This document shows positions 45,205 to 64,000 of a stretch of DNA of 64,000 nt, piece after piece (positions within the stretch are counted from its first letter, which is position 1; every line of letters begins with the position of its first letter). Source of the stretch: Minisyncoccota bacterium (GTDB taxonomy: Bacteria; Patescibacteriota; Minisyncoccia; Phycocordibacterales; VMEP01); the NCBI GenBank assembly GCA_041661305.1, contig JBAZUR010000001.1, positions 313,986 through 377,985 on the forward strand, in the 5' to 3' direction. Below the pieces are notes generated by a model, which saw nothing but the letters and a program-made list of their open reading frames with translations, was not told where the DNA came from and did not search any database. Made by a program: the position numbers and the translations under genes.

Positions 45205-48200
45205 TTAAATAGCCGGAGTACTTGTTGCAACCGTATCTGTTGTTGTCGCTGTTTCTGTTGTAGTTGGTGCGACTGTTTCCACTGGTGTTGTGGTTGTTGT
45301 ATCAACGACAGGAGTCGTCGTTGTATCTGTCGTTGTCGTGGTGGTCTCTGTAGTTGGTGCGGTGTAGGTCGCAGTTGGTTCAGTGAGAGCATTCACACTT
45401 CCAGAAATCGCATCAACAATCGCTCCGACAACCGACGAGCTTGAAGTTTGTGTTGCTGTTGTTGCTCCACCGACCAAACACTCCCCTGACGTTGTTTTTG
45501 GAAGACCGCCGGAGATTGTTAGACAGTATGGCGTTCCAAACTCTTCGTCGTACATTGTAATTCCAGAACGTCTCTCTGGTGAACCAACCTTGATTCCACC
45601 ACGCACCTCAATATTGTCAGCCAATAATTTACCGCTTGCGTCGATGCTCCATGTGCCGGAGGACGAAGTGATTGCGCTAACATTTTCAACAGCAAATCCG
45701 GCCATATCAAGAACTCCTTGTGACAAAACTCGACCAGATACTGAATCAACGGCAAGTGTCGCAGAAGTTGATGTCGCGCTTGTCAAAGCCCCATCAAGTC
45801 GTGTCCAACCAACTGAAACAGCGACAGCAACCGAGCCCTGATAAACAAACGTGCCATCAACATTCACCGAGGTCACGGTCGAAGTTGCCGACTGAGTTCC
45901 GTCAAACAAACCAAGTGCTATACCTATTGTCTGTGATGATGTTGTCGCCTTCATACCAACACCAGGAACTGAAGATAGTGTGATGCGATCGCCCGGCTTG
46001 ATTACACCGCCCTCAGTTGAAACCTTAACGACAGTCTTTCCAGAAAATACGACTGATGGTGAAGTGCTTGTACTCGAGAACGTTAGTCCGGCAACGTTCG
46101 CGATTCCAACTATTGATGTTGCGTTTGTCTTGTCTGCGCGAACCAAAACGGCGGATGTTGTTGTTGCACCCATCTCACTTGGCGGTTCGACCGCCAAGTT
46201 GGTGGCTTGGGTTGTTGTGGCGCTCATTGCGACGATATCACCGGCCTCAACATCACTTGAGGAAAGGTCGGCAAAATGTTCTGCGATTCCTGATTCTGCG
46301 AGAGCAACTTTATCTGACGAGATTGTGCGTGAACCAAATGAGTCACAGAAAGATGCGACACAGATGCTGTCTGAAATAATTGCCTTGGCGGAAATAATAT
46401 TTGCTTTAATATCGCCAGCAAAAGTTAATACCGGTGTGCTTGTTGCGGAAATTGAAAGGTAGATATTTTCAGTAGAGCTTGAAGAATTATCAGAAGAACT
46501 AGAAACTTCACCGATTGAGAAGGTGCCATTTCTTGATTCAACAAACCAATCTTTTGTTGTTGTTCCGACCCCAACATTTCCACCACTAATTGAGTCGATA
46601 ACAGAAGCTGTGTCGGTGAGAGTCAAACGAGGAGAAGGAGCTGAAATTGATAGTGCTGATTTTGGTGCCGATGTGCCGATTCCAACACGACCATCGCCTG
46701 TAATTGCAAACGAAGTGTTACCAACAGCGTCAAGTGCGACGAAAGTCATCGTTTCTCCAATTTTGGAGGTTGAGCCTCCAAAATTGTTTTGGACGGTGAG
46801 GCGGGCGGTTGCGGTTGGTGCGATTCCTATCGCGCCGGTTGTTGAGCCGGTTGTTGCGATGCCGATGCCAACGTTGCCACTGAATACGGCGTCCGCGCCG
46901 ACGTTCAAATCTTTTGCAACGTAAATATCTTCTGTGTTTATTTTTTTAACCTCCACCGTGTCGCCAACAAATTTTCCATTCTCATCAACAGACCACTTTC
47001 CGTCAACACCGAGGATACTAGAAACTTCTTTTATAGAGCTACCTTTCAAATTAAGAACTGTCGTTGTTGAAAGGGTTGTTGCGCCTGTCGTCTTATCTAT
47101 GACCCAAGCATTTGTTGCAATTGTTGAAGTTGCCAAAGCGAGAGATGCGCTAATCTGAGTATCAAAATCTTTCATTGAATCAACTTTTGAAGCCAAGGTT
47201 TGTACGCCAGAGAGTGTGAAAGTTGCAAGTTTATACAAATCAACACCTTTTCCATCTGGGGAAAGAATTTCAGGGGCAACAACTTGCGCATCTTCAGCGA
47301 TAAAACCAAGACGAAGCGGTTCACTATTTTCCTCTGCGTTGTAACGATATGTCGCAGTCTTCAAATTAATGAGTTGATTAAACATGTCTTCCGCTGAAGA
47401 AGCAGTCGTGTAAGAAATATCTTTTTTCGCAGTCTTTGTTGATGTGTTCACGAAAGCGGTAGCGCCAACGTCTCCTGCAACAGAAAGCGCGCGATTTGGC
47501 GTCGTCGTGCCGATGCCGACGTTGCCGTTTACATCAACGGTTAGCACAGATGTTGTCGTGGCACTTGAAATAAAACTTGTGCGGGTGTTGAGTTCTTTCA
47601 CACCCTGCAATGCTAAGGCTCCTAACTTGCTGTAACTCACACCCCAAGCACCGCTATCTGTATCTTTTAGATTAGGGTCATCGTTATCGCTTCCTTTAAT
47701 TACAACCTCTGGAAATATTGGATACAATTCTTGAGCTATAACCCCAATATCATGTTTACCTGTTCCTTTCCAATCAAATGCTACGGCACGATAATTATCT
47801 AAACGATTAAGAACGGACAAACTTTCTATGTTTTTCTTAAGGCGAACATCTGATCCCGACACCCAGTCAACACCCTGATCTGCCACATACGGCCCTGCGG
47901 TAAATGTGATTGCATTTCCCGCCGTTCCAGATGGTGCGGTCATAACTCTTACGCCTATACCACCACCAGCACCATATCTAATTTGTGAAGCCTTATCACT
48001 AACATCGTAAAGATAAGAATCTGTGGTATCTGTGGTGCGGAAGTTGTAACCCGTAGACCCGTAGTTACCACCAGAATTTCCTATAGCCACCACTCCAACA
48101 CGCAACCCCGAACCAGCAGACCCAGATGGAATATTCAAAGAGTAATTTGCTGATGGAGTTGTCCCGATGCCAGTTTTTCCGTTAGTATCAATGGTCATTT

Positions 48201-51200
48201 GGCGATTCCCACCGTTAGTAGCGAATGTAATTGACCCTTGTGAGCGTAGGCCAAACAGAGAACTGTCGGCGGTGCCGAATAGAGTGGCGCCATAACCAAC
48301 ATATCCTCGAGCCCCATTAGCTGTACTATCATAAAACGTAGTGTAAGCTCCTGTTGATACATTAGACTCGAAGCGAGCTGTTTCACTTGTACCAGAATAA
48401 ACGTTCAAAACTGCTGATGGTGTTGTGGTACCAATACCGACGTTGCCACCAGTTGCTATCGTTATCCCATTACCACTACTGCCGAAAGTAGTTGTCGTAA
48501 TTCTAATTTTCCCAGTTGCTGAATGAGTACCAATGTAAGCCGTACCACTGGTTCTCAAGTACATTCCTGTATCATTTCCAAAGGTGTTTACATCGCCAAC
48601 TATGAATGCAGCAGAATTAGACCCTGAGTGACTAATATGTAGAGGGCCCGCCGGATTCGCCAGCCCAATACCCACACCTCCACCGTTCGTCACAATGAAG
48701 TCTGTCTTTGTTGATGAACCAATGACAAATGCAGGGCCGGTGATACCGTTTGGATTTACAGAAAGTTGACCCCAAGGTGTTGATGTACCAACTCCAAAAT
48801 TTCCACCATTGAAATATGAGTTTCCACTATTGTTGATTAAAATATTTCCGTTTGATGAACTGATACCTCCATCATTCATATACATCGAACCGGTGCCTGT
48901 GCGGAGTGTTCCTTTCACCCACAAGTTTGAAGCGAAGGTCGAGGTGGCATTTGTACCCGTGCCGTTCACGTCGATGAAGCCAGCGAAGGTTGAGGTGGCT
49001 GTTCCGCTAACAGTGAGGTTACCTGCGTTTGATACTGAGAATAGAGTTGATGTTGCGTATGCGGATGTTGAACTTCCTATTGAGAACAGTGTTGTGTTTG
49101 TCTCTCCTGCGTTTGCGTGAATAGAAAGTTTTGCATATGGCGAGGTGGTGCCGATGCCAACCTTATCAGCATAATCAGCCAAGAAAGATTGAACTCCGTC
49201 GTTTTGCCAACCACCAGCTGTTGCGTTGACTGGAGCAATGAGGGCGCCGGTGAAGGTTGAATTATTACCGAGTGTATGGTCACCACCACATGTATTATTA
49301 ATAATAAGGCTAAAATAATCAGTTGTTCCATTAGCATCTGCAACCACACTAAGCGAAGGTACTCCCACCACATACGAACCGTTACCAAGAAGAGCTGAAC
49401 TTGTTAATCCACCTCCATTCTTTGTGATATATACAGTAACACCATTTCCCACAGTACAAGTTGCAAAGGTATCTGTTGTGAGGTTTACAGTTAAAATGTA
49501 CTTGCCTGCTACCGTCGGCGTGAACCGTTCAGTAGTGAGGTCGAAGTTATTGTTGGTGTCAAACCTCTCCGCATCAAACGTAACGGTAGTATTACCTCCT
49601 CCTGCAGTAATGACCTGACTCGTCCCATTCTTATACACACTGAACGAAGGCCCAGTCGTCGCTGTATTCATTCCTTGCCATGTTCCATTTAGATTTTTGA
49701 ATTCAAGAGTGCCGGCATTGTCACGAAGACCGTAACCACCTGTGCCTGTTGATGTGCCGAAGTTTAGATAACGGCTCGTTCCATTGAGAAGTGTGTCGCC
49801 GTAGACAGTTAATTTAGCCGATGGGGTGGTGGTGCCAAAACCAACGTTGCCAGTTGAGTCAATACGTATACGTTCTGTGCCAGAAATAGTTATTCCGATA
49901 GCATTTGCAGAAGGTCTAAAGAAACCAGTGGTGGTATCATTTCCGACCGTAAGTGTCGGAATACTAGCCGACCCTGAAATCTGAATGGTTAATTGCGTGG
50001 GGTTCACTCTAGCTACTTCGATGCCATTAGCAACTAACCCTACGGTGTTGCCTGCGACCCTCGCAATACCAGTGTTTGTTGAATCGGCAAATGCAATAGA
50101 AGGTGCCGCCGTACTTCCATCAGGTATTATTATTTGTCCACTCCCAATAGTAAGTGCTGCGGTTGGGTTACTTGTGCCAATTCCAACCTTACCCCCATTC
50201 GTCACGATAAATTTAGTAGCAGTTGACGAACCAATTACAAACGCTGGGCCAGTGATACCGTTTGGGTTTACAGAAAGTTGACCCCATGGCGTCGTTGTAC
50301 CGATGCCGAGATAACCGTTATCATCAAGCCGCATCTTCTCAGAGAGCGAGTACCCGTTCAATGTGGAGAAGGTTAATGCAGAGGTGGTGGCAGTACCGCC
50401 AGCGTTAGTGAAAATAGCGCTGATACGACCGATGTTGGTGGTAGTGGCTGAGGTGTTACCGGCGGCAAAGAGGAGGCTGGTACTGATGCCGTTGGCTCCT
50501 GGAGTGGTAGTTGCCCACCCACCGTGAGTAATGGTAAGCACATCAGCATTAGATGAGGTGTTGCTGTCGAAGGTGCCCGCATAGAGCGCCGGGGAGAGTA
50601 CGAGGGAGGTGGAGGTAGATTGCATAAACGTTCCCGAACCATTACTGAAAAGACCCCCTTGACCGAGATTCAAACCACCTCTGACATAGAGGTTGTTTCC
50701 TATATCCATATTATCCCAAACCGTAACCGATGATGACTGCAAATTCCCCGTAAGGACTGTTGGTATTTCTATACCTGCAAGATTAACTACCGTAAGACGA
50801 CTCGTACCATAAGCTGTCACGTACGCATAACGACCGGAAACATAAACTGCGGCAGCGGAAGATAAGTTTGTGCTGTCTTTTAATGAACCGACGACGAATG
50901 GGTTAGTTGGAGTTGAAATATCAACCACAGTTAGGCGGTTACTACCGCTTAGTGTAGTTACGTACGCATAGCTCCCAGAAACAAACATCGACTGGGGAGC
51001 AGATAAATTATCTGCGTCAAATACAGACCCGACAACAACAGGGGTTGATGGGTTAGAAACATCAACTATAGTAAGACGGCTTGTACCGTTTGCGCCAACA
51101 TAAACATACCTACCGGAAGCATAAACGGAGATTGCACTGCCTAAATTTACAGCATCATTTACAGACCCTACAACAATAGGGGTTGTGGGGTTAGATATAT

Positions 51201-57200: not shown

Positions 57201-60200
57201 TACCTAAGTCATATGTATTATCAGCATCTGGGCCAACATTTCCCAACACTTGAAGTTTAAATGTTCCTGGTGTCGTAGTGCCTATTCCTACATACCCTGA
57301 ATTGTTTATTACAAACAATGTTGATGAAGCGGAGTTAACAACTTGAAATACATTTTCTGCTGTTGTGGTTGCAGACCATACTGTGAGTTTTGCATATGGA
57401 GTGCTTGTGCCTACACCAACACGTGTGTTTGCCATACTGCCTGTGCCGTCTGCTTGGCCGTAGATTGTGAGGACAGGATTGCTGTCTAATTGAGCGGTGT
57501 AACTTTGAACTGTTCCGTTTGCAGAAGAAGATGTGACTGGCATATCAACCCATGAGAGTATTCCCCCGTCGGTATCAAAATTCATTGAACCAAAATTAAG
57601 ATTTGAAATCGATGTTGAAGTGGTGGAAGCTTCGTAGAAAATATCGTAACCACCAATATTCATATCTCCATTGTCTGTGACTTGCAAGAGTGTTGTTGAG
57701 GCACTATTCACCAACGCAAATGTCTGCCCTGTTGTTGTGCCTGTCCCCCACACTGTTAGTTTTGAATATGGTGTTGATGTGCCGATGCCGACATTGCCTG
57801 CACTGGTAAGTCTCATTGCCTCAACGGAACTACCAGGACTCAACACAATCGCACCATTAGCGTTCATTGAAAGGAGTGAGAGAAGTGGGCTGCCAGAGTT
57901 GTAACTGTATTGTATCTGAGCACCAGCGTCATCAGCTGGAGTGCCAAATAAGATACGGGCAGGATTCGCATCTGGGCTGATGAAATGCATTCCTACATCA
58001 GAAGAATTCTCTATCACAAGGTCGTCAGCCGCTGTGTTAGCAATAATGGTTCCCGCACTTCCTGAGAATATGTTCAGCTTCCCTTCCGGCCCCGTCGTTC
58101 CGATACCGACGTTGCCACTTGTTTTTATTCTTACTTGTTCCGATGCTGTCCCTGCAGAATACGGCCTAAATACAATGTCGCCAGAATTATCCGCTCCATT
58201 TCTTACCGCACCTATATCTGCTATCGGATTTGATACTCCTGCAATATCTTGAATTGAAAAAGTTACGGCTGAGCCAAAACCATTTATCATATCACCTGTT
58301 GTTTTGTGTCTTACCATTAAACCTCGTGCAATAGAATCAATTGCGGCAGATGTTCTTTCTGAGGTGATCGTATAATCACTCCCGCTAGTCACATCTAACT
58401 TAACCCCTGGTGTTGATGTGCCAATGCCAACGTTGCCCGTCATAAACGCAAAGAGTGACGCATTAAATTCCATTGGCAAATAAACATTACCGGCATCGTT
58501 AAATGAACGAACTGAGGCCCCGGCCCCGGCAGTTAGTGCGCCGATAACGTCGACATTAACGTTAGTCCCCGCATGAGTACGAAATGTTCCCCAATTATCC
58601 AATTTATATGCTGGTGTTGCTGTCCCAATACCGACGTTGCTGCCGACAGGGTTCAAAAGCAACGGATATGTCTGATCACCGCTTCGCGCCGCCTGAATAA
58701 CACCGCGATTGTTCGTTGTGTCAATCATGAAAGAAAGTCGTTTGAGCGGATCTGTCGCACCGCTTATCGCCAATTGTGCACCGCCGTTGTTGTCGTAAGG
58801 ATAGGGCCCCGTTCCATCTGCTACGATTTGTGTCTTGAATCCAGGTGTCGTTGTCCCAATACCGACGTTGCCGGTTGTATCGATTGTAACGCGAGCAGAG
58901 TTATTAGTCGTAAGCGTAAGTGGGTCTGAAGTATACGTACCCATGAAAAGATCATCATTATTATCAACATATATACGCGAACGGAGACCAGCGAGACCCG
59001 TGCCTTTCGTAATCGCGAAACCAGCGTATCCAGTTAGGGCATCGTTATTAACCGCGGAGAGAGGGTAAGTGCCATAAGAACCGCTTGTGGTATTGCGTGA
59101 TACAACGAGTGCATTATCAGGGCTCGTTGTTCCAATACCGACATTGCCTCCAGATGGTTCTAAGACTAATGCGTCGTGTGTCACCCCCTCTGTAATTGCT
59201 CCAATATATCCGTATTTATTGGTTGTGTTGTAGCCAACATATACACCCTGTGTGTTTGCCGCGTAAAACTTTGCAATGGAATTTGCATATATAGTTCCAC
59301 TGCTACCAAGTACGTTCAGTTTCGCGTTCGGTGTCGTCGTGCCGATGCCGACGTTGCCGGAAGATAATAATGTCATCACATCAGTATCTGCATCACTACC
59401 ACTTGCATAGTTAAGAGAAATTGTTAGTGCTGTACGTGAATTGTTTGTTGCGTCCTGCCACCTTCCCATCCAAAAATCAGCCACCTGCTCGTAGGTTGAT
59501 TCTTGTGGAAGCATTAGACTAAACAATTTCTGATTTTTGATAACAGTTGAACCAGCAGAAACTGCGGTCCCGATAACATTCAACTTACCAGAAGGATTAG
59601 TAAACGAATCGTTTGTGCCAACATTCAAGTATCCTGCGAAAGTTGATGTTGCTGTTGTTGATGTAGCAAAGATAGCAGCGACTTGTGGAGTTGATGATGC
59701 AACAAGAGTACCTGAGCCATCAGTTGTGATAACCATGTGCTTACCTAGTGATGAGTAGACAGGAGCAGTGGTTCCATAGATTGTGCCGTCTACTTCTAGG
59801 TCACCTGCTATATATGCAGAGTTGTAGTAGTTAGTTGAAGCTATGCTGTCTGGTGTTGATGAACCGACTGTGAGTAATACTGTTGGTGAGGTGGTGCCGA
59901 TGCCGACTTTGCCATCGTAGCTCACTGTTAATATTGAAGCGTTGGTTGAACTTGAAACCTGGAATATAGGGCGAGTGGAACCGGATGTTCCCATTACAGA
60001 AAGTTTTGCAAATGGAGTTGATGAGCCGATACCAACGCCATAATTTTGAATACCACCTACCCCATCAGACTCACCATAAACAGTGAGCATTGAGTTGCCA
60101 TCAAGATGTGCTGTGTAGCTTTCCACTGTTCCGATTGCTGAATCAGAAGTAACAGGCATATCAATCCAAGAAAGTGCGCCTGCGTCAGAATCAAAACTTG

Positions 60201-63200
60201 TTGCACCAAGATTTAGATTTGAAACAGAAGTTATGCCGGATGAAAAATCATAAGTTAAATCACCCGAACCAACGTTCAAGCCTCCGGCGAATGTTGATGT
60301 TGCTGTTGTTGATGTTGCGTAGAAATAATCTGCGACAACAGGGCCGGCGACAGAAAGTTTTGCATATGGAGAAGTGGTGCCTATGCCGACGTTGCCAGTG
60401 CTTGTTATCCTCATCTTTTCTGTACCGCCTGTGATGAAGTTAATATCAGCGGAACCTGTTCCTGAAGTGTTGTTGTAAGCACGAATAGAACCAATATTAG
60501 AAGCGTAACTTATACCAAGACCTTGTCCTGTGCCCCAATATGAAGGCGAGCCAACAGCTTGAACAGATTGAGCGGTAACCCCCCCACCTTCTACGTGGAG
60601 TTTATCTGCCGGACTCGTCGTGCCGATGCCAACATTGCCGGCGTTGGTAATAATAAATTTAGTCGTTGTGTTATCGCCGACTTCAAGGATAGAATCCGAA
60701 ACATTGAAGTTACGACCAAGGAATGTTTCGTAGGTGCCTTGTTGGTTGACCCAACGTATCGTCGAGTTAGAGATATCGGCGTTCGTCGTCTTTAATATCA
60801 TCGCAACAGCCCCATAAAGATTAGAACCGGAATTCACACTCTCTGTGGCTACTGTAAGTGCTGACCCAGAAACAAGAGCCGTAGACGTCCCTACTACTGT
60901 GTTACCAAAGACACTGAGCTTTGCCGTTGGCGTCGTCGTTCCCACCCCGATATTTCCACCAAGTCTTTGCAAAATCAAGGGAAGTGATGTTTGGGCATAC
61001 TGAGTCACACCAATCTCACCAAATCCATTCGTGGTATCAACACCAATATGCATAAAACGATTACCAGCGATACTGTTTGTTTGTCCTATTCTTAATGTGT
61101 CGCTCACCGTACTCTCCACAGAAAGTTTTGCTTGCAAATCTGTAGTTCCAATACCAACCCTACTTGTTGAATAATCAACAACCAAAGAATTCGTATCAAC
61201 CGTTAAACCTCCAGCAAAAGTTGAAGTTGCGGTGGTTGATGTAGCAAAGATAGCAGAAACTTGTGGAGATGATGATGCGACAAGTGTGCCTGAGCCATCA
61301 GTGGTGATAACCATATGCTTACCAAGAGATGAGTAGACAGGAGCTGTTGTTCCATAGATTGTTCCATCTACTTCTAGATCACCTGATATGTATGCAGAGT
61401 TGTAGTAGTTTGTTGAAGCTATGCTGTCTGGTGTTGATGAGCCGACTGTGAGTAAGACTGTTGGTGTGGTGGTGCCGATGCCGACGAGGCCGTTTCCTTT
61501 CACGTTAAATAATACACTTGAACTTGAGTTCTGAACTTGAAAAATATCTGCAGTTTGTGATGATGCTCCTTGGAATACTGCTAGCGTTCTTGTGGGGGTG
61601 CTGGCATCTTGCGTAAACAACATTGCTTGTGGTGCTGAGTCATAGGCACTGTTCGAGACAGAGAACTTAAGTGTTCTGTTTGCTGAATAAATTTGATTTT
61701 GGACACCTGTTAGTTGCCCAATGGCCATCGTCCCCCCACCAGCATAAGACAAGTTGATACCTACTGTCCCTGCCCCAAGATTCTCCAGTGAAAGTGCATA
61801 CTTGTTTGTTATGTTTCCCTGATTGATTACGAATTTTGAGCTTGGATTTTCCGTACCAACTCCGACATTTCCGCTTGCAAGCACAGTCATTAAAGTAGTA
61901 GTGGAATTTCCAGCTGTTGTTGAAGCAATAGTGAATAGCGGTGTGTTTACAGCTGTGGTCGCAGAGTTTGAAATTGAAAGAACGGAATTCGGTGTCGTTG
62001 TGCCGATACCGACCAAACCATTACTATCTATTCTCATTCTTTCTACTATATTAGTGCCATTAGAAGTACCAAAACCAAGAGTTCTTTCTGCGATAGTAAC
62101 TACAGAAACCCCGTTGGTTTCCAAAGTACCAGTGCTTGACATCTTCATTGTCAAACCATTTACCATAGAAGGAGAACCACCGTTATATAACTGATAACGT
62201 GGACTTGCTTCACTGCTATAGTAATACGCAAACGTTCGGCCAGTCCCAATTCTCCAATTATCAGAAAGACTAGAGGTGATATGTAGTGGGGATTGCGGAT
62301 TACTTGTCCCAATTCCTACATTTCCACCGACAAACAAATTTGTCGTTGACGCTGTAGTTGAGTAGAAGTTTGTTGTTGTTGCACTTGTTCCTGTCGCATT
62401 TACGAATGTGAAGTTTTGAAGAGTTGATGAACCTGTTGCTAATAGATTTGCAAATGAAAGTGTGCCTGTCGCGGTAATGTTTGTTGCTGTGAGTGTGCCA
62501 CCAAAGAATCCTGAGCCGTTAACGGAGAGTGTGGTGAACGGTGATGAGGTCCCGATGCCGACATTACCGTCGTAACCAACAGTTAACATAGATGCGTTTG
62601 TTGAACTTGAAACTAGGAACACAGGACGAGTGGAACCAGATGTTCCCATTACGGAAAGTTTTGCCCAAGGAGTTGATGATCCGATTCCAACGCCATAATT
62701 TTGAATACCACCTACCCCATCAGACTCACTATAAACAGTGAGCAGAGCGTTGCCGTCTAGGTGTGCAGTGTAGCTTTCAACTGTTCCGATTGCTGAATCA
62801 GATGTCACTGGCATATCAATCCAAGAAAGAGCACCTGAGTCGGCATCAAAACTTGTTGCTCCAAGATTTAAACTTGAAATAGATGTGACTCCAGATGAAA
62901 AATCATAAACCAAACTATCTGAACCAACATTCAACCCGCCAGCAAACGTTGATGTTGCGGTGGTTGATGTTGCGTGGAAATAATCTGCGACAACAGCTCC
63001 GGCAACTGAAAGTTTTGCGTAAGGTGATGTGGTGCCGATGCCGACGTTGCCACCAAATATTGCGGTATCTGTTCCTCCTATTTGAGTCGTACCTCCAGAG
63101 AATGAACCAAATGCGACATTGTTCCCCTGGAAGCTCATCACCGGTGTTCCACTGGTAGTAAAATTGTAAGAAGTATATGCACCTCCTCCAGCACTAAGAC

Positions 63201-64000
63201 TCAAGTAGGTACCACCACCAATTCGTGCAATACGAAAATCACTTGATACACCAGACCCTGTGATGATTGTTGAACTAGCTGCAAGTGTGCCATTCACCCA
63301 CATTTGATATCCAGGATTCACCCCTGCTCCGACACTGACATTGCCACCAGCAGTTGCAAAGTATGCAGAACCAGATGAAGTGATAGCTGTGGTTGATGCG
63401 TATGGGAATGTTGAAGCTTGAGTGAGAGATGTCGCAGTGAAATATGGAGCTGTGATGGCACCTGTTACTGTGAGTGTGCCTGTTGCTGTGAGGTTTCCTC
63501 CGATATATGCATCACCTGCTACAGAGAGTTTGGCGAATGGTGAGGTTGTGCCGATGCCGACGTTGCCAGTTGAATCAATTCTTATTCTTTCAACTCCAGC
63601 TGTATTAAGTCCGATATTACTTGCCGATGGAGCATACATACCGCTTGCCAAGTCCGCGACAAATGCAAAACCAGGTGCACCAACGGATCCGTTACTTACG
63701 GCCCACCTTGCATCAGTTCCCATGGTGTTGGTCGTTACCTTGTAAACTCTGTCCACGTCATTGACTGCTGAGTTTGCAAAATATATTCCGTCATTGTCAG
63801 CCCCATGAATATATGTCCCCCCTACTATGGATAATTTGTAATTACCATTTGGGGTACTTGTACCTATACCTATTCTGCCACCATTATCAACAACGAAACT
63901 TGTCGCAGTTGAACTTCCGACAACGAAAGCAGGACCAGTGATGCCATTTGGGTTTACAGAAAGGAGTCCCCATGGGCTAGTGGTGCCGACACCAACATTG
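45205..64000 (-). CDS. giant repetitive surface/adhesin-like protein (more than 6,260 aa, 5' end beyond window) with tail-fibre-like repeats, LVIVD repeats, Hep_Hag-like modules and two Peptidase_S74 chaperone domains
   Basis: The track ORF starts at a GTG at 63756, but the same frame stays open with no stop through 64000 (...NVGVGTTSPWGLLSVNPNGITGPAFVVGSS...). Hundreds of GNVGIGTTSP-x-AKL(S/H)V units. Thr/Pro-rich C-terminal tail. Confidence 0.8.
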   Translation of the reverse strand, partial: NVGVGTTSPWGLLSVNPNGITGPAFVVGSSTATSFVVDNGGRIGIGTSTPNGNYKLSIVGGTYIHGADNDGIYFANSAVNDVDRVYKVTTNTMGTDARWAVSNGSVGAPGFAFVADLASGMYAPSASNIGLNTAGVERIRIDSTGNVGIGTTSPFAKLSVAGDAYIGGNLTATGTLTVTGAITAPYFTATSLTQASTFPYASTTAITSSGSAYFATAGGNVSVGAGVNPGYQMWVNGTLAASSTIITGSGVSSDFRIARIGGGTYLSLSAGGGAYTSYNFTTSGTPVMSFQGNNVAFGSFSGGTTQIGGTDTAIFGGNVGIGTTSPYAKLSVAGAVVADYFHATSTTATSTFAGGLNVGSDSLVYDFSSGVTSISSLNLGATSFDADSGALSWIDMPVTSDSAIGTVESYTAHLDGNALLTVYSESDGVGGIQNYGVGIGSSTPWAKLSVMGTSGSTRPVFLVSSSTNASMLTVGYDGNVGIGTSSPFTTLSVNGSGFFGGTLTATNITATGTLSFANLLATGSSTLQNFTFVNATGTSATTTNFYSTTASTTNLFVGGNVGIGTSNPQSPLHITSSLSDNWRIGTGRTFAYYYSSEASPRYQLYNGGSPSMVNGLTMKMSSTGTLETNGVSVVTIAERTLGFGTSNGTNIVERMRIDSNGLVGIGTTTPNSVLSISNSATTAVNTPLFTIASTTAGNSTTTLMTVLASGNVGVGTENPSSKFVINQGNITNKYALSLENLGAGTVGINLSYAGGGTMAIGQLTGVQNQIYSANRTLKFSVSNSAYDSAPQAMLFTQDASTPTRTLAVFQGASSQTADIFQVQNSSSSVLFNVKGNGLVGIGTTTPTVLLTVGSSTPDSIASTNYYNSAYISGDLEVDGTIYGTTAPVYSSLGKHMVITTDGSGTLVASSSPQVSAIFATSTTATSTFAGGLTVDTNSLVVDYSTSRVGIGTTDLQAKLSVESTVSDTLRIGQTNSIAGNRFMHIGVDTTNGFGEIGVTQYAQTSLPLILQRLGGNIGVGTTTPTAKLSVFGNTVVGTSTALVSGSALTVATESVNSGSNLYGAVAMILKTTNADISNSTIRWVNQQGTYETFLGRNFNVSDSILEVGDNTTTKFIITNAGNVGIGTTSPADKLHVEGGGVTAQSVQAVGSPSYWGTGQGLGISYASNIGSIRAYNNTSGTGSADINFITGGTEKMRITSTGNVGIGTTSPYAKLSVAGPVVADYFYATSTTATSTFAGGLNVGSGDLTYDFSSGITSVSNLNLGATSFDSDAGALSWIDMPVTSDSAIGTVESYTAHLDGNSMLTVYGESDGVGGIQNYGVGIGSSTPFAKLSVMGTSGSTRPIFQVSSSTNASILTVSYDGKVGIGTTSPTVLLTVGSSTPDSIASTNYYNSAYIAGDLEVDGTIYGTTAPVYSSLGKHMVITTDGSGTLVASSTPQVAAIFATSTTATSTFAGYLNVGTNDSFTNPSGKLNVIGTAVSAGSTVIKNQKLFSLMLPQESTYEQVADFWMGRWQDATNNSRTALTISLNYASGSDADTDVMTLLSSGNVGIGTTTPNAKLNVLGSSGTIYANSIAKFYAANTQGVYVGYNTTNKYGYIGAITEGVTHDALVLEPSGGNVGIGTTSPDNALVVSRNTTSGSYGTYPLSAVNNDALTGYAGFAITKGTGLAGLRSRIYVDNNDDLFMGTYTSDPLTLTTNNSARVTIDTTGNVGIGTTTPGFKTQIVADGTGPYPYDNNGGAQLAISGATDPLKRLSFMIDTTNNRGVIQAARSGDQTYPLLLNPVGSNVGIGTATPAYKLDNWGTFRTHAGTNVNVDVIGALTAGAGASVRSFNDAGNVYLPMEFNASLFAFMTGNVGIGTSTPGVKLDVTSGSDYTITSERTSAAIDSIARGLMVRHKTTGDMINGFGSAVTFSIQDIAGVSNPIADIGAVRNGADNSGDIVFRPYSAGTASEQVRIKTSGNVGIGTTGPEGKLNIFSGSAGTIIANTAADDLVIENSSDVGMHFISPDANPARILFGTPADDAGAQIQYSYNSGSPLLSLLSMNANGAIVLSPGSSVEAMRLTSAGNVGIGTSTPYSKLTVWGTGTTTGQTFALVNSASTTLLQVTDNGDMNIGGYDIFYEASTTSTSISNLNFGSMNFDTDGGILSWVDMPVTSSSANGTVQSYTAQLDSNPVLTIYGQADGTGSMANTRVGVGTSTPYAKLTVWSATTTAENVFQVVNSASSTLFVINNSGYVGIGTTTPGTFKLQVLGNVGPDADNTYDLGSPTMRWQNIYATNIFSSTSPTFSSLGKHMVITTDGSGALVASSTPQVSAIFATSTTATSTFAGGMIVDTNSFVVDYSTGRVGLGTLSPSNKLDLGSSGSIVNFGASLTVLSNNQLTLNASGGVTIQNLASQDSSPLTIQTGNSAANNNDIIFKPGAVEVARIAETGFVGIGTTTPTSLLDVYGARSAGANVDFIRINSAGHGGSVADGASLAFTSGVGGTTVGRVQSVVSAGSYDLAFHTGGTIGEKMRIMANGNVGIGTTSPSALLTLDAGVVSQAFYSVLSGSRNGIAGIKIANISTGTGAQSILTFGEDTGQSATPAYLIRYNSTHSTRANDLDIHASGDLVLQPNGGNVGIGTTSPASKLAVSGGASIGANYNIAAPTNGLMVEGNVGIGTTDPVNSKLYVLNSGVANLIIGYNNTSNNYFDAGNNIFRNASAVEAMRITSTGNVGIGTTSPATTLSVHGTGSMTGLLTANSGGTLAQSVSGIRILGSSSDNNWAGGMDFTSYNGTSVYNRILNSTGGMFFYTGTSATNVERMRIDNTGNVGIGTTSPFAKLSVAGDTYIGGNFTATGTVSAGTTTLTNLIVTNTSTSTFAGSLNVNNGDFAYDYTSGITSISNLNLGATNFDADAGLVTWTDMLVSSNVAQGTVEGYVAQLNGDPVLTIYGQADGTGSMANTRVGIGTSTPYAKLTVWSATTTAENVFQAVNSASSTLFVINNSGNVGIGTTSPFAMLSVNGSGYFAGTLTATNITATGTVSFQNFTFVNATGTSATTTNFYSTTASTTNLFVGGNVGIGTNSPGARLDVSGNIRNQTSVNSFANSYTAAFGKTRVIDASNPQFELWHDGSSAGQFSYSGGTLNYGTHTGGGTQTTYLTVLSGGNVGIGTTTPGTLLSLGNTGANTINISNTATSTFGYGINLATGCFAVNGVCVGSSSGTNFFTNSGASTYLSTGTNLGIGTTSPYAKLSVQATAGGSTPLFTIASSTSGAGTSTAFHVASNGYVGIGTSNPSVALDVLGNIKLGANTGAAASPGTLITFNNSGYAAPAAPSVVGAGEKLMLWDNGGYKSTIGLNAGELYLQSSGSATGGMSFYTGTSGAGTERLKITPTGNVGVGTTSPSYKLDVAGFINTDKYSGYKQDGNTVLYASTTNTSLAVGASSASSWMSASSTPWYSVAVGQGALATTPTNATAQYNTAVGYNALTSNTTSKKNTAIGVDALYSNTTGSFNTANGMSTLYFNTTGSSNTANGLNALYSNTTGASNTAIGANALYSNTTGNTNIAIGRSALHNNASATSSIAIGYSAAEGNASYSNQGGVYLGYSAGFSAATGSDYNTFVGYNSGYGVTTGARNVFLGNSTISASYNQVTTGSNNISIGNDVAVASATASNQLNIGNLIYGVNLNGTGSTLSTGNIGIGDATPSYKLDVAGFINTDQFGGYKQDGNTVLYASTTNNALAVGASSAAGWMSASSTPWYSVAVGQGALATTPTISTAQYNTAVGYNALTANTVGYYNTANGYQALYANTTGVNNTAVGGKALTANTTGYYNTAIGMNSLLANTTGYYNTVSGTAALVANTTGYNNTASGVNSLYFNTTGYNNVASGVQALYLNTTGYQNTANGTQALYNNITGTNNTANGMNALFNNTSATSSTAVGYSAARGPSSYYNQGGTYVGYQSGYSAGNNSDYNTFLGYQSGYGVTTGSNNIWIGTATSSTAIANLTTGSQNILIGNNISLPSATASGQLNIGNIIFGTGITGTGSTLSTGNVGVGTTSPYAKLSISASSTLPAFAIVQSTSTTATGPLMSFLNGFATSSGPAASPIEFGSIRDFHMTVKGSVADTTNLPGAMALSVSGRYAYVTSDSGDRLTVVDVTNPSTPVVVGSVKDSINLNAPRSISVSGRYAYVGAQDNNGLAVVDISNPTTPVVVGSVKDNTKLNAPRAVSVSGRYAYVTSSGGARLTVVDISNPTNPVVIGSVNDATNLSIAIGLSVSGRYAYVAAAGSSRLTVVDISNPTTPIVVGSVNDAVNLGSAISVYASGRYVYVGANGTSRLTIVDVSNPSTPVVVGSVFDADNLSAPQSMFVSGSYAYVTTLSGSNRLTVVDISTPTNPFVVGSLKDSTNLSSAAAVYVSGRYAYVTAYGTSRLTVVNLAGIEIPTVLTGNLQSSSVTVWDNMDIGNNLYVRGGLNLGQGGLFSNGSGTFMQSTSTSLVLSPALYAGTFDSNTSSNADVLTITHGGWATTTPGANGISTSLLFAAGNTSATTTNIGRISAIFTNAGGTATTSALTFSTLNGYSLSEKMRLDDNGYLGIGTTTPWGQLSVNPNGITGPAFVIGSSTATKFIVTNGGKVGIGTSNPTAALTIGSGQIIIPDGSTAAPSIAFADSTNTGIARVAGNTVGLVANGIEVARVNPTQLTIQISGSASIPTLTVGNDTTTGFFRPSANAIGITISGTERIRIDSTGNVGFGTTTPSAKLTVYGDTLLNGTSRYLNFGTSTGTGGYGLRDNAGTLEFKNLNGTWQGMNTATTGPSFSVYKNGTSQVITAGGGNTTVTFDAERFDTNNNFDLTTERFTPTVAGKYILTVNLTTDTFATCTVGNGVTVYITKNGGGLTSSALLGNGSYVVGVPSLSVVADANGTTDYFSLIINNTCGGDHTLGNNSTFTGALIAPVNATAGGWQNDGVQSFLADYADKVGIGTTSPYAKLSIHANAGETNTTLFSIGSSTSAYATSTLFSVSNAGNLTVSGTATSTFAGFIDVNGTGTNATSTFASNLWVKGTLRTGTGSMYMNDGGISSSNGNILINNSGNSYFNGGNFGVGTSTPWGQLSVNPNGITGPAFVIGSSTKTDFIVTNGGGVGIGLANPAGPLHISHSGSNSAAFIVGDVNTFGNDTGMYLRTSGTAYIGTHSATGKIRITTTTFGSSGNGITIATGGNVGIGTTTPSAVLNVYSGTSETARFESNVSTGAYTTFYDSTANGARGYVGYGATLFGTADSSLFGLRSQGSITFATNGGNRQMTIDTNGKTGIGTTPSANYSLNIPSGSAGSGLRVGVVAIGNSGGNYGSTGYNFRTTDTTDSYLYDVSDKASQIRYGAGGGIGVRVMTAPSGTAGNAITFTAGPYVADQGVDWVSGSDVRLKKNIESLSVLNRLDNYRAVAFDWKGTGKHDIGVIAQELYPIFPEVVIKGSDNDDPNLKDTDSGAWGVSYSKLGALALQGVKELNTRTSFISSATTTSVLTVDVNGNVGIGTTTPNRALSVAGDVGATAFVNTSTKTAKKDISYTTASSAEDMFNQLINLKTATYRYNAEENSEPLRLGFIAEDAQVVAPEILSPDGKGVDLYKLATFTLSGVQTLASKVDSMKDFDTQISASLALATSTIATNAWVIDKTTGATTLSTTTVLNLKGSSIKEVSSILGVDGKWSVDENGKFVGDTVEVKKINTEDIYVAKDLNVGADAVFSGNVGIGIATTGSTTGAIGIAPTATARLTVQNNFGGSTSKIGETMTFVALDAVGNTSFAITGDGRVGIGTSAPKSALSISAPSPRLTLTDTASVIDSISGGNVGVGTTTKDWFVESRNGTFSIGEVSSSSDNSSSSTENIYLSISATSTPVLTFAGDIKANIISAKAIISDSICVASFCDSFGSRTISSDKVALAESGIAEHFADLSSSDVEAGDIVAMSATTTQATNLAVEPPSEMGATTTSAVLVRADKTNATSIVGIANVAGLTFSSTSTSPSVVFSGKTVVKVSTEGGVIKPGDRITLSSVPGVGMKATTSSQTIGIALGLFDGTQSATSTVTSVNVDGTFVYQGSVAVAVSVGWTRLDGALTSATSTSATLAVDSVSGRVLSQGVLDMAGFAVENVSAITSSSGTWSIDASGKLLADNIEVRGGIKVGSPERRSGITMYDEEFGTPYCLTISGGLPKTTSGECLVGGATTATQTSSSSVVGAIVDAISGSVNALTEPTATYTAPTTETTTTTTDTTTTPVVDTTTTTPVETVAPTTTETATTTDTVATSTPAI
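47170..47880 (-). other. two tandem Peptidase_S74 (endosialidase-chaperone-like, autoproteolytic intramolecular chaperone) domains inside the giant ORF
   Basis: SDVRLKKNIESLSVLNRLDNYRAVAFDWKGTGKHDIGVIAQELYPIFPEVV...ALQGVKEL and TAKKDISYTTASSAEDMFNQLINLKTATYRYNAEENSEPLRLGFIAEDAQVVAPEIL...LSGVQTL. Confidence 0.7.
50775..51700 (-). repeat. eight tandem LVIVD-type repeats (beta-propeller blades) inside the giant ORF
   Basis: SGRYAYVTSDSGDRLTVVDVTNPSTPVVVGSVKD ... repeated 8 times with about 40-aa period. DNA units of about 120 nt are visible. Confidence 0.7.
52030..53960 (-). repeat. two tandem ~330-aa modules of NTAxG / ALxSNTTG deca-peptide repeats (Hep_Hag / YadA-head-like or tail-fibre-like)
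   Basis: YKLDVAGFINTD(K/Q)...NTAIGVDALYSNTTGSFNTANG... then a second copy ...YNTANGYQALYANTTGVNNTAVG... Confidence 0.6.

What the first reader, a model, noticed from the sequence alone, without database searches (positions are those of the whole stretch)
45205..64000. Giant (more than 6,260 aa, 5' end outside window) tail-fibre/adhesin-like protein combining phage-tail-fibre-type GNVGIGTT repeats, LVIVD propeller blades, Hep_Hag-like head modules and two S74 autoproteolytic chaperone domains
This is a single open frame of at least 18.8 kb. The supplied ORF begins at a GTG at 63756, but the frame has no stop up to the window edge. Hundreds of copies of S/T-GNVGIGTTSP-x-AKL-S/H-V and Y-A-T-S-T-T-A-T-S-T-F-A-G-G units resemble the beta-helical/fibre repeats of phage tail fibres and tailspikes. 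The combination with Peptidase_S74 domains (see separate finding) points to a trimeric, self-processing fibre. There is no sortase signal, and the C-terminus is a Thr/Pro-rich (possibly glycosylated) tail. The fibre sits at the head of the LamG array. This is the most likely candidate in the window for a large extracellular attachment or predation structure.
Basis: partly seen in the sequence, partly recalled or inferred. Interest (0 to 1): 0.7.

Follow-up and report, generated by a model that had tools for sequence, protein, structure and literature searches.

The report
Giant phage-tail-fibre-like surface fibre gene
An ultra-small Parcubacteria (CPR) bacterium spends at least 18.8 kb of its tiny chromosome on one gene. 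The gene encodes a very long fibre built from phage tail-fibre parts, which most likely lets the cell reach and hold other microbes. It is one of a large family that has been annotated but never studied.

Summary
The open frame is real. It has 6,264 codons on the minus strand (45205-63999) and is still open at the window edge. The sequence is cellular and comes from a Parcubacteria/CPR chromosome.

Confirmed:
- Phage-tail-fibre and Bdellovibrio-MAT-type shaft modules, joined by the GNVGIGT 'capping loop'. There are about 43 copies, not hundreds.
- A 7-blade LVIVD propeller.
- Two divergent Peptidase_S74 chaperone-protease domains, both with the Ser-Lys dyad.
- A Thr/Pro-rich tail.
- Three co-directional secreted LamG genes downstream.

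Not confirmed: Hep_Hag membership. That region consists of 17-residue repeats that match phage tailspike profiles.

New findings:
- The C-terminal module is a phi29-gp12/Peptidase_G2-type auto-chaperone that has lost its cleavage-site Asp.
- A complete 7,920-aa orthologue sits at the same locus in a distant relative. It starts with an HTH_17-like domain and one membrane helix, not a signal peptide.
- A closer relative keeps only the last ~520 aa (dN/dS 0.13) and has different modules upstream.
- Giant homologues of 3,000-7,900 aa are common, and LamG genes often follow them.

Best reading: a membrane-anchored, trimeric, self-processing mosaic adhesin fibre about 0.2-0.4 µm long. I rate it a new variant of a known kind. 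Its function is inferred, not shown.

The parts
45205..64000 (-). Giant fibre gene. It is 5'-truncated by the window edge: 6,264 codons plus a stop at 45205-45207. Amino-acid numbering here starts at nt 63999.
53815..63999 (-). Shaft region 1 (aa 1-3395). About 31 beta-helix-type modules are delimited by GNVGIGTTSPxAKL 'capping-loop' motifs, with several diverged internal duplications (48-87% aa identity).
51940..53814 (-). Two blocks of 17-residue NTAxG-xxAL-xNTTG repeats (aa 3396-3660 and 3696-4020). They match phage tailspike and virion-protein PHROGs, not Hep_Hag.
50755..51717 (-). Seven-blade LVIVD beta-propeller (aa 4095-4415).
49720..50754 (-). Shaft region 2 (aa 4416-4760).
49120..49692 (-). 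Possible C1q/TNF-like globular domain (aa 4770-4960) with one Cys pair. The assignment is below threshold and tentative.
47875..49119 (-). Shaft region 3 (aa 4961-5375). This would be the distal tip after S74 cleavage.
47560..47874 (-). Peptidase_S74 domain 1 (aa 5376-5480). The predicted nucleophile Ser5383 is at codon 47851-47853, in the motif S-DVRL-K.
47464..47559 (-). Short capping-loop module between the two S74 domains (aa 5481-5512).
47164..47463 (-). Peptidase_S74 domain 2 (aa 5513-5612). Ser5520 is at codon 47440-47442, in the motif S-TKTA-K with Asp replaced by Thr. The same change is present in the orthologue P0246.
46315..47163 (-). Short shaft of the C-terminal unit (aa 5613-5895). 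From about aa 5705 it is conserved with the LiPW_30 orthologue.
45640..46314 (-). phi29-gp12/Peptidase_G2-type auto-chaperone-like module (aa 5896-6120). Its motif reads S-G-IAEHF where 65 of 68 homologues have D-x-A-E.
45460..45639 (-). Conserved Cys-pair terminal element GITxYDxxxGxPYCL...GEC (aa 6121-6180).
45208..45459 (-). Thr/Pro-rich low-complexity tail (aa 6181-6264).
41915..45190 (-). LamG gene 1 (1,091 aa). It has an N-terminal signal peptide and starts 14 nt after the giant gene's stop.
39816..41906 (-). LamG gene 2 (696 aa), with a signal peptide.
37723..39807 (-). LamG gene 3 (694 aa), with a signal peptide.

Best explanation
This is a chromosomal gene of a Parcubacteria/CPR bacterium. 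It encodes a giant, membrane-anchored, homotrimeric surface fibre assembled from phage tail-fibre parts. It is a very large relative of the Bdellovibrio 'mosaic adhesive trimer' (MAT) fibres.

Proposed mechanism, with shown and inferred steps marked:
1. The N-terminus lies outside the window. By analogy with the complete positional orthologue, it holds the chain in the membrane with an HTH_17-like cytoplasmic domain and one transmembrane helix, N-in and C-out. (Inferred.)
2. The exported chain folds as an intertwined trimeric beta-helix. The fold is nucleated from the C-terminal side by the intramolecular chaperone domains. (Inferred from what is known of the S74 and G2 families.)
3. The shaft is a chain of about 40 modules capped by GNVGIGTTSPxAKL loops. 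It is interrupted by side-displayed binding domains: two 17-residue-repeat blocks, a 7-blade LVIVD propeller and possibly a C1q/TNF-like knob. (The domains are shown. Their display on the fibre is inferred.)
4. S74 domain 1 cuts before Ser5383, and S74 domain 2 possibly cuts before Ser5520, using Ser-Lys dyads. This would free a mature fibre of at least 5,382 aa per chain, about 0.2-0.4 µm long, from a C-terminal piece of about 880 aa. (The motifs are shown. Cleavage is inferred.)
5. The terminal G2-like module has lost its cleavage Asp. It probably acts only as a permanent trimerising cap or chaperone. (Inferred.)
6. The fibre, together with the three secreted LamG lectin-fold proteins encoded directly downstream, binds surface glycans of a host or partner cell. 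(Inferred.)
7. The gene evolves by cassette exchange at a fixed chromosomal locus. (Shown by comparing three genomes.)
For: Reality of the gene:
- The frame is open for 6,264 codons.
- The longest exact internal repeat is 54 nt.
- dN/dS is 0.13 over the 540 codons shared with the LiPW_30 orthologue, against 0.06 for GAPDH.

Cellular context:
- Neighbours include GAPDH, RpiB, Rpe, split transketolase, DnaE, GyrB, PheST, ribosomal protein S2 and EF-Ts.
- Homologues are overwhelmingly from Patescibacteria.

Fibre nature:
- PHROG tail-fibre families 9942 and 18345 hit with E values down to 1e-39.
- Cyanophage and pelagiphage tail fibres hit with E values down to 4e-19.
- The solved MAT fibres hit: 8OND Bd2133 at E 4.6e-10, plus 8OML and 8OJN, aligned across the ERMRIxxxGNVGIGT-P-KL motif.
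- The MAT paper describes trimeric beta-helices with a V-G-G/N-x-x-x-P-x-x-x-L capping loop and an S74 SDxxxK motif (PMC10769870).

Chaperone domains:
- S74 passes Pfam at 72.8-77.2 bits, with Ser and Lys present in both copies.
- For the G2-like module, a family profile hits phi29 gp12 (3GQH, E 2e-4) and Dpo31 D4 (E 1e-4).
- Four homologues pass Pfam PF11962.

Extracellular location:
- The 8 Cys fall into 4 close pairs.
- The LamG partners carry signal peptides.

Anchor:
- Orthologue P0246 (7,920 aa) has an HTH_17-like N-terminus and a transmembrane helix at aa 330-352, in the same synteny.
- Of 55 giant homologues, 27 share this N-terminus and 14 have an N-terminal hydrophobic segment.

Mosaicism:
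- The close relative LiPW_30 shares only aa 5705-6207 (76% identity) and has FG-GAP, Kelch-like and canonical G2 modules upstream.
- The distant L003 shares the LVIVD and tandem-S74 modules.

LamG linkage:
- LamG genes follow the giant gene in L002, L003, L005 and L006.
Against: - No experiment or expression data exist. Trimerisation, cleavage, surface location and any ligand are all inferred.
- The N-terminus of this particular protein is not in the window. Exact-match scans of two collections could not extend it.
- The S74 domains are internal. This leaves unexplained why a conserved piece of about 880 aa would be cut off.
- The Foldseek PDB search did not confirm the G2-like fold (best E 0.095), and Pfam does not call PF11962 on this protein itself.
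- Only the last 1.7 kb of the gene is confirmed by an independent assembly.
- One giant homologue locus (L004) shows no LamG neighbour.
Confidence: 0.7

Rival explanations
1. The gene is the tail fibre of a prophage, tailocin or extracellular contractile injection system. On this view it is a particle component, not a cell-surface protein.
For: - PHROG and phage tblastn matches are to tail fibres and tailspikes.
- S74 and G2 chaperones are classic phage parts.
- The upstream side of the gene is not visible.
Against: - The 45 kb downstream is housekeeping, with no phage or sheath/tube genes.
- The same giant-LamG-GAPDH-RpiB-Rpe-Tkt synteny holds in genomes as far apart as 65% GAPDH identity. 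In L003, signal peptidase I, ribosomal protein L21 and RmuC lie upstream.
- The orthologue carries its own membrane anchor.
- A chain of 6,000-8,000 aa is far beyond known phage fibres such as T5 pb1, which is 1,396 aa (PMC4690869 abstract).
Confidence: 0.04
2. The 18.8-kb frame is an assembly artefact, a chimeric join of several fibre genes or strains. Alternatively it is a decaying pseudogene that is not expressed.
For: - The gene is repetitive.
- The Logan assembly of the same sample breaks at 46902, and the LiPW_30 contig ends inside its orthologue, which also carries a frameshift.
- The Logan break falls within 6 aa of a conserved/variable boundary.
Against: - The frame is uninterrupted for 6,264 codons.
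- Internal repeats are diverged: at most 86% nt identity, with a longest exact repeat of 54 nt.
- A complete 7,920-aa orthologue with the same module order (LVIVD ... S74-S74 ... Cys element ... T-rich tail) exists on a 406-kb contig.
- Dozens of homologues of 3,000-7,900 aa exist in independent assemblies.
- The comparable part is under purifying selection.
Confidence: 0.07
3. The protein is a real surface fibre but not a host-binding adhesin. It might be a structural coat or spacer, a matrix or biofilm fibre, or a decoy for phages that use similar fibres.
For: - No ligand is known.
- Sequence composition (T/S/G/N-rich) and extreme length also fit a passive envelope or matrix polymer.
- The family is huge and diverse.
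Against: - Lectin-type and propeller binding domains are embedded in the fibre, and secreted LamG partners are encoded next to it.
- Rapid cassette turnover at a fixed locus is typical of receptor-binding proteins.
- The characterised relatives, MAT fibres and phage fibres, are adhesins (PMC10769870).
Confidence: 0.17

Closest known systems
Bdellovibrio bacteriovorus MAT (mosaic adhesive trimer) fibres, e.g. Bd2133 (8OND), Bd3182 and Bd1334 (Caulton et al. 2024, PMC10769870)
   Same: - The shaft modules show direct sequence similarity, including the ERMRIxxxGNVGIGT-P-x-x-KL capping-loop region (E 4.6e-10).
- Both are encoded by a bacterium, not a phage.
- Both are mosaic, with swapped binding domains.
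- Many members end in an S74 SDxxxK chaperone-protease.
   Different: - MAT fibres are about 600-1,150 aa. This one is at least 6,264 aa, and the orthologue is 7,920 aa.
- MATs have a signal peptide and a conserved ~130-aa beta-rich N-domain. The orthologue here has an HTH_17-like domain plus a transmembrane anchor.
- In MATs the conserved end is the N-terminus and the variable end is the C-terminal tip. Here a conserved ~520-aa unit sits at the C-terminus, downstream of the S74 sites.
- This protein has tandem internal S74 domains plus a G2-like module.
- The organism is a monoderm-like CPR bacterium, not a diderm predator.
Phage tail fibres and tailspikes with a C-terminal S74 intramolecular chaperone (K1F endosialidase 3GW6, T5 pb1 4UW8; cyanophage and pelagiphage fibres)
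   Same: - The S74 domain has a Ser-Lys dyad.
- The shaft is homologous to annotated phage fibres at 26-32% identity and to PHROG tail-fibre families.
   Different: - This is a chromosomal cellular gene.
- It is 5-10 times longer.
- The S74 domains are duplicated and internal, not terminal.
- No virion genes are nearby.
phi29 gp12 pre-neck appendage auto-chaperone (Peptidase_G2, PF11962; 3GQH) and Dpo31 domain D4
   Same: - The family profile of the C-terminal module hits both (E 1e-4 to 2e-4).
- The module sits at the C-terminal end of a fibre.
   Different: - This protein does not itself reach Pfam significance.
- The Asp that starts the released phi29 fragment (D-F-A-E-Y-F), present in 65 of 68 homologues, is Gly here.
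- The module is followed by an extra Cys-pair element and a T/P-rich tail.
- Foldseek did not confirm the fold.
Myelin regulatory factor (MyRF) ICA domain (7DC3)
   Same: - The S74 domain is internal rather than terminal, and is preceded by the same capping-loop motif. The alignment is weak (E 0.36) but places Ser and Lys in register.
- The protein combines a DNA-binding-type domain, a membrane helix and S74. Here that combination is seen only in the orthologues.
   Different: - MyRF is eukaryotic.
- The domain order differs: in MyRF the DNA-binding domain and S74 are on the same side of the membrane, so cleavage releases the transcription factor. Here the HTH would be cytoplasmic and S74 extracellular.
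- There is no evidence of signalling.
Trimeric autotransporter adhesin heads (YadA_head/Hep_Hag)
   Same: Both have short Asn/Gly/Ala-rich beta-strand repeats in a trimeric adhesin. One small homologue (P0055) has a precomputed PF05658 hit.
   Different: - The repeat period is 17 residues rather than about 14 (the 14 is from my own knowledge).
- Pfam gives no hit at E<=5 and PDB sequence searches give none at E<=10.
- There is no autotransporter beta-barrel anchor.
Giant proteins of Omnitrophota and other predatory or episymbiotic bacteria (West-Roberts et al. 2023 preprint, 10.1101/2023.11.21.568195)
   Same: Both are a very long single ORF in an ultra-small, probably host-dependent bacterium, and both are suspected to act in cell-cell interaction.
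   Different: - The building blocks differ. That paper's text contains neither 'tail fiber' nor 'S74', and it mentions CPR only in passing.
- Its abstract points to proteins larger than the ~40,000-aa titin.

Membership tests
Peptidase_S74 (intramolecular chaperone of endosialidase / tail fibres) | Match to PF13884 above the gathering threshold | tested here: met
   The score is 72.8-77.2 bits against a cut-off of 22, in two separate stretches (aa ~5383-5433 and ~5522-5577).
Peptidase_S74 (intramolecular chaperone of endosialidase / tail fibres) | Catalytic Ser-Lys dyad in an S-D-x-x-x-K motif (PMC10769870) | tested here: met
   Copy 1 reads S5383-D-V-R-L-K. Copy 2 reads S5520-T-K-T-A-K, with Ser and Lys kept and Asp replaced by Thr. 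The same change is in orthologue P0246.
Peptidase_S74 (intramolecular chaperone of endosialidase / tail fibres) | Trimerisation-dependent autoproteolysis that releases the domain | not testable with these tools
   This needs expression of aa ~5100-5700 with and without S5383A and S5520A.
Peptidase_S74 (intramolecular chaperone of endosialidase / tail fibres) | Domain located at the C-terminus of the precursor | tested here: not met
   About 780 aa follow copy 1 and 650 aa follow copy 2. The orthologue and some homologues also have tandem or internal S74 domains.
Bdellovibrio MAT superfamily | Fibre shaft of beta-helix modules with the V-G-G/N-x-x-x-P-x-x-x-L capping loop | tested here: met
   phmmer hits 8OND (E 4.6e-10), 8OML (1.9e-6) and 8OJN (3.9e-3), aligned over the motif. 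There are 43 motif copies.
Bdellovibrio MAT superfamily | Signal peptide followed by the conserved ~130-aa beta-rich N-terminal domain | not testable with these tools
   The N-terminus is outside the window. The positional orthologue instead starts with an HTH_17-like domain and a transmembrane helix at aa 330-352, which argues against strict membership.
Bdellovibrio MAT superfamily | Homotrimeric fibre displayed on the cell surface | not testable with these tools
   This is inferred from homology only.
Peptidase_G2 (phi29 gp12 auto-chaperone, PF11962) | Match to PF11962 above threshold | tested here: not met
   Pfam gives no hit on the window protein at E<=5 or E<=1. Homologues P0172, P0189, P0193 and P0235 pass (28-32 bits against a cut-off of 25), and P0123 is below threshold at 17.3 bits.
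Peptidase_G2 (phi29 gp12 auto-chaperone, PF11962) | Fold and profile similarity to the gp12 C-terminal fragment | tested here: met
Peptidase_G2 (phi29 gp12 auto-chaperone, PF11962) | Asp at the cleavage site in the D-x-A-E motif. The released phi29 fragment starts with DFAEYF. | tested here: not met
   The window protein and the LiPW_30 orthologue have S-G-I-A-E-H-F. Asp is present in 65 of 68 homologous motifs.
LVIVD repeat beta-propeller (PF08309) | Repeated LVIVD units above the Pfam threshold | tested here: met
   The score is 198-203 bits against a cut-off of 20.2. There are 7 blades at a 46-aa period.
YadA_head / Hep_Hag | Match to the Hep_Hag/YadA head profile | tested here: not met
   Pfam gives no hit at E<=5 and PDB sequence searches give none at E<=10. 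The repeat period is 17 residues.
C1q/TNF-like domain (PF00386) | Match above the Pfam threshold | tested here: inconclusive
   The score is 17.3 bits against a cut-off of 23.7 (E 0.0057) over 47 residues. PDB C1q chains hit only at E 0.15-0.29.
Sortase-anchored (LPxTG) surface protein | C-terminal LPxTG motif, hydrophobic segment and charged tail | tested here: not met
   There is no [LIV]Px[TSA][GAS] motif anywhere and no hydrophobic stretch (maximum 19-residue Kyte-Doolittle mean 1.37). A sortase gene does exist at 14660-15241.

The most novel reading that the evidence does not exclude
The giant fibre could be more than an adhesin: a single-chain contact sensor. In the complete orthologue and in about half of the giant homologues, a cytoplasmic HTH_17-type DNA-binding domain is tethered by one membrane helix to a sub-micron extracellular fibre that carries self-cleaving S74 modules. 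Host contact or fibre processing might then be coupled to release or activation of the HTH domain. This would be a bacterial, inside-out analogue of MyRF, and would link attachment to gene regulation in an episymbiont that has very few regulators. In addition, the tandem S74 domains plus the G2-like chaperone could make the precursor a 'polyfibre' that is cut into several separate trimeric products.
Probability: 0.1. Interest if true: 0.85.

Novelty: new variant of a known kind. Interest (0 to 1): 0.55.

Why it matters
How CPR/Patescibacteria find and hold their hosts is a central open question for a group thought to make up a large share of bacterial diversity. So far only type IV pili and a few adhesins have been implicated, and only in Saccharibacteria (PMC10633639 and PMC12206443).

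This locus is a concrete, testable candidate. If the genome is about 0.7 Mb, as the related LiPW_30 contig suggests, then at least 2.8% of it is spent on one fibre built from phage receptor-binding parts. The locus is conserved in position across distant relatives, its modules turn over quickly, and it is linked to lectin-fold partner genes.

Four full-text searches of the paper library found no paper describing S74-type fibres in Patescibacteria. Yet thousands of homologues, many of them giant, sit unannotated in public data.

The protein also extends the Bdellovibrio MAT concept, described in 2024, to another lifestyle and envelope type. It shows unusual combinations of intramolecular chaperones (S74 x2 plus a degenerate G2) in one chain.

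Tried and rejected
- Extending the gene beyond the window: exact 60-mer scans of genome contigs and metagenome contigs found nothing. Neither the protein searches (best 39% identity) nor the Logan contig, which covers only 36918-46902, recovered the protein's own upstream part.
- Whole-protein or 4,333-aa homology queries failed: too long, then a time-out.
- Hep_Hag/YadA head: rejected after Pfam at E<=5 and PDB at E<=10 gave nothing.
- First structure model of the C-terminal module, from 8 sequences: pLDDT 41, unusable. The 121-sequence alignment gave pLDDT 77.
- C1q/TNF-like knob: only sub-threshold signals, so it is kept as tentative.
It was not repeated, because the look-up of encoding contigs gave the syntenic loci.
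- Recent tandem duplication of the two S74 domains: rejected, because BLASTP finds no similarity between them.
- An intra-window repeat as the cause of the Logan contig break at 46902: rejected, because there is no shared k-mer of 21 nt or more.
- Homologue sizes from the search for homologous proteins were not used. Its hits never exceeded about 1.75 times the query length. Sizes come from the representative search.
- Literature: four searches for Patescibacteria plus tail fibre, S74, giant or HTH terms found no description of this family.


Full report
OBSERVATION.

On the minus strand one frame is open from the window edge (nt 63999) to a stop codon at 45205-45207, a run of 6,264 codons. 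The ORF lister reports a GTG start at 63756, but translating 63400-63999 shows the frame continues upstream without a stop. The gene is therefore truncated at its 5' end by the window.

The protein is rich in Thr, Gly, Ser, Ala, Val and Asn.

The motif GNVG[IV]GT occurs 26 times, against 0.0007 expected from composition. A looser pattern finds 43 copies, spaced 37-538 aa apart and mostly 80-180 aa. The exact unit ATSTTATSTFAG occurs 5 times, or 8 times loosely. The motifs are real but number in the tens, not the hundreds. They punctuate modules of roughly 100 aa rather than forming a short tandem repeat.

Internal duplications exist, for example aa 301-450 against 1190-1335 (83%) and aa 830-937 against 1356-1463 (87%). 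They are diverged: DNA copies are at most 86% identical, and the longest exact repeat in the gene is 54 nt. That argues against a collapsed or concatenated assembly.

An independent Logan assembly of run SRR18595301 is 100% identical to window 36918-46902 and ends there. Only the last 1.7 kb of the gene has independent support.

WHERE IT SITS.

The rest of the window is ordinary chromosome:
- RNase HII, DnaE, ThrRS, GyrB and PheST.
- A sortase, two-component regulators, a sigma factor, ribosomal protein S2 and EF-Ts.
- A release factor, L25, FBA, PfkB, split transketolase, Rpe, RpiB and GAPDH.

Directly downstream of the giant gene, after gaps of 14 and 8 nt, lie three co-directional Laminin_G_3 genes. 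All three have N-terminal signal peptides.

Homologues come overwhelmingly from Patescibacteria/Parcubacteria metagenome-assembled genomes, where NCBI often names them 'tail fiber domain-containing protein'.

The nearest genome found is Parcubacteria group bacterium LiPW_30 (GCA_007375595.1). Its housekeeping proteins are 88-94% identical to those of the window, and it has the same order: giant gene, LamG genes, GAPDH, RpiB, Rpe, transketolase.

ANATOMY (aa numbered from nt 63999).

(a) aa 1-3395, 4416-4760 and 4961-5375: shaft.
- PHROG tail-fibre families 9942 and 18345 match repeatedly, with E values down to 1e-39.
- tblastn finds cyanophage and pelagiphage tail-fibre genes at 26-32% identity, with E values down to 4e-19.
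- phmmer against PDB sequences finds the Bdellovibrio MAT fibres 8OND (Bd2133, E 4.6e-10), 8OML and 8OJN. The alignments run across '...ERMRIxxxGNVGIGTxxPxxKLxV'.
- The MAT paper shows these are intertwined trimeric beta-helices. Their edges are closed by a capping loop with consensus V-G-G/N-x-x-x-P-x-x-x-L, a feature also seen in MyRF (PMC10769870).

(b) aa 3396-4020: two blocks of 17-residue NTAxG...NTTG repeats, with 6 and 9 strict copies.
- They match phage tailspike and virion-structural PHROGs 23837, 4636 and 6002.
- They match no Pfam family, including Hep_Hag, at E<=5, and no PDB sequence at E<=10.

(c) aa 4095-4415: a 7-blade LVIVD propeller, at about 200 bits in Pfam.

(d) aa ~4770-4960: a possible C1q/TNF-like knob, below threshold at 17.3 bits against a cut-off of 23.7.

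(e) aa 5376-5480 and 5513-5612: two Peptidase_S74 domains.
- They are so diverged that BLASTP does not align them to each other.
- Both keep the Ser...Lys dyad: S5383-DVRL-K and S5520-TKTA-K.
- They are separated by one capping-loop module.

(f) aa 5613-6264: a C-terminal unit. It consists of a short shaft, a module at aa ~5896-6120, a Cys-pair element (GITMYDEEFGTPYCL...GEC) and a Thr/Pro-rich tail.

The visible part has no LPxTG motif and no membrane helix. Its 8 cysteines fall in 4 close pairs, as expected for an extracellular protein.

THE C-TERMINAL MODULE IS A THIRD, DIFFERENT AUTO-CHAPERONE.

- Searching with the post-S74 region, and then with a family profile, gathered 121 sequences. 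Four of them pass Pfam Peptidase_G2 (PF11962), and one more is below threshold.
- The profile hits the phi29 gp12 C-terminal fragment (3GQH, E 2e-4) and the Dpo31 D4 chaperone domain (E 1e-4).
- Foldseek gave nothing significant, and Pfam does not call the window protein itself. The link is therefore good but transitive.
- The released phi29 fragment starts D-F-A-E-Y-F, and 65 of 68 homologous motifs have that Asp. The window protein and its LiPW_30 orthologue have Gly instead (S-G-I-A-E-H-F). I infer that this module still folds and trimerises but no longer cuts.

COMPARATIVE EVIDENCE.

1. LiPW_30.
   - Only giant aa 5705-6207 is collinear, at 76% aa identity. dN/dS there is 0.13, against 0.06 for GAPDH.
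   - Upstream of that point the LiPW_30 gene has different content: shaft modules, FG-GAP/VCBS repeats, Kelch-like repeats and a canonical A-D-I-A-E-Y-F G2 domain where the window has two S74 domains. Its contig ends inside the gene.

2. The representative search (aa 1-1200 against 1.84 billion cluster representatives).
   - It found 31,807 relatives at E<=1e-3 and 634 at E<=1e-30.
   - Of the 123 newly returned sequences among the best hits, 55 exceed 3,000 aa and 8 exceed 5,000 aa.

3. P0246 (7,920 aa, complete).
   - It lies on a 406-kb contig in the order signal peptidase I, giant gene, two LamG genes, GAPDH, RpiB, Rpe, transketolase. This is the same locus, although GAPDH is only 65% identical.
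   - It shares the LVIVD propeller (48-60% identity), the S74-linker-S74 cassette (43%, including the S-T-x-x-x-K variant in the second copy), the terminal Cys element and a Thr-rich tail. It lacks the G2-like module.
   - Its N-terminus is an HTH_17-like domain (weak, 17.6 bits; clear in P0244 at 56.5 bits). A single transmembrane helix follows at aa 330-352, with Arg/Lys on the N-terminal side.
   - The same HTH-like start occurs in 27 of 55 giant homologues, and 14 of 55 have an N-terminal hydrophobic segment.

4. LamG neighbours. LamG genes also follow the giant genes P0260 and P0262, but none is seen after P0244.

5. Chaperone combinations. Tandem S74 domains or G2+S74 combinations recur in other giant homologues.

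HOW IT MOST LIKELY WORKS.

Shown:
- The domain content.
- Intact S74 dyads.
- Homology of the shaft to structurally solved trimeric fibres.
- Cellular context, conserved synteny, cassette turnover and purifying selection on the shared part.

Inferred:
- The chain is anchored by its N-terminus and exported.
- It folds as a trimer from the C-terminal chaperones backwards, as S74 and G2 chaperones do in phage fibres.
- It is cut before Ser5383, and perhaps also before Ser5520. This leaves a fibre of at least 5,382 residues per chain whose new C-terminus is the distal tip.

MAT fibres run at 0.4-0.7 Å per residue: 150 Å for the 370-aa Bd2133 tip and about 550 Å for Bd3182. Scaling from those figures gives roughly 0.2-0.4 µm, which is my extrapolation.

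The propeller, the 17-residue-repeat blocks, the possible C1q-like knob and the secreted LamG partners would provide multivalent glycan or protein binding to a host cell.

Two points remain unexplained:
- A conserved piece of about 880 aa lies beyond the cleavage site.
- The closer relative carries different cassettes from those of the more distant one.

RIVALS.

- Prophage or injection-system fibre: unlikely, given the housekeeping context and deep synteny.
- Assembly artefact or pseudogene: unlikely, given the diverged repeats, the uninterrupted frame and the complete orthologue. It is not excluded for 46902-64000.
- A non-adhesive structural role cannot be excluded.

COMPARISON AND NOVELTY.

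The protein works like a MAT or phage tail fibre and is homologous to both. It is not a strict member of the Bdellovibrio MAT family as that family is defined, for three reasons:
- The N-terminal architecture differs in the orthologue.
- It is 6-8 times larger.
- It has internal tandem S74 domains plus a degenerate G2 chaperone.

It is one of many database relatives, most labelled hypothetical and some 'tail fiber domain-containing'. It is therefore not categorically new.

Four full-text searches found no paper describing this family in Patescibacteria. I rate it a new variant of a known kind, with moderate-to-good interest as a testable candidate for CPR host attachment.

Noticed in passing
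L003:8001-31763 (ENA ERZ27250632 k141_139112), protein P0246: This is a complete 7,920-aa positional orthologue. It starts with an HTH_17-like domain and has a single transmembrane helix at aa 330-352. 27 of 55 giant homologues share this N-terminus. A DNA-binding-type domain tethered to a sub-micron extracellular fibre is an odd architecture with no explanation so far.
   Followed up: partly
window 46902 (giant aa ~5699): The independent Logan contig from the same run ends here. That is within 6 aa of the point where similarity to the LiPW_30 orthologue begins (aa 5705). No repeat of 21 nt or more in the window explains the break. It may reflect strain-level cassette heterogeneity in the sample.
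   Followed up: partly
L002:1-8968 (Parcubacteria bacterium LiPW_30, VMEP01000001.1): The orthologous giant gene is cut by the contig end and split by one frameshift into pieces of 1,984 and 1,016 aa that overlap by 38 nt. It carries FG-GAP/VCBS repeats, Kelch-like repeats and a canonical G2 domain in place of the window's LVIVD and S74 modules. The LamG genes downstream are also fragmented (466, 224, 491 and 199 aa).
   Followed up: partly
window 8805-11150 (-): The phenylalanyl-tRNA synthetase beta chain carries an NlpC/P60 peptidase-like segment (aa 359-466, E 1.4e-10) between its B3/4 and B5 domains.
   Followed up: no
window 14660-18565 (-): A sortase gene sits next to two Ice_binding-like (PF11999) surface proteins, one of which also has DUF7507/DUF11 repeats. 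This is probably a separate sortase-dependent surface system. The giant fibre has no LPxTG motif.
   Followed up: no
window 34439-34810 (-): A 23S_rRNA_IVP / bAvd-like four-helix-bundle gene is inserted between rpiB and rpe. It is absent at that position in L002. Genes of the same family lie just downstream of the giant gene in L004 and about 5 kb downstream in L005. None of the window ORFs scanned matched a reverse transcriptase.
   Followed up: no
P0051, P0074 (homologues): Some small S74 fibre homologues in Patescibacteria start with a type IV prepilin-like N_methyl segment (for example MINKSNKGFTLIEVLIY...). This suggests that fibre modules are also fused to pilins.
   Followed up: no
L003 contig (405,985 bp): P0246 (7,920 aa) and P0249 (4,735 aa; G2 plus S74) are each reported on a longest contig of the same length, 405,985 bp. 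One genome may therefore carry at least two giant fibre genes.
   Followed up: no
window 37011-37589 (-): A PaaX_M (Cas2-like middle domain) protein lies between the LamG array and GAPDH. The same arrangement is seen in the Logan contig. This gene is absent at this position in L002 and L003.
   Followed up: no
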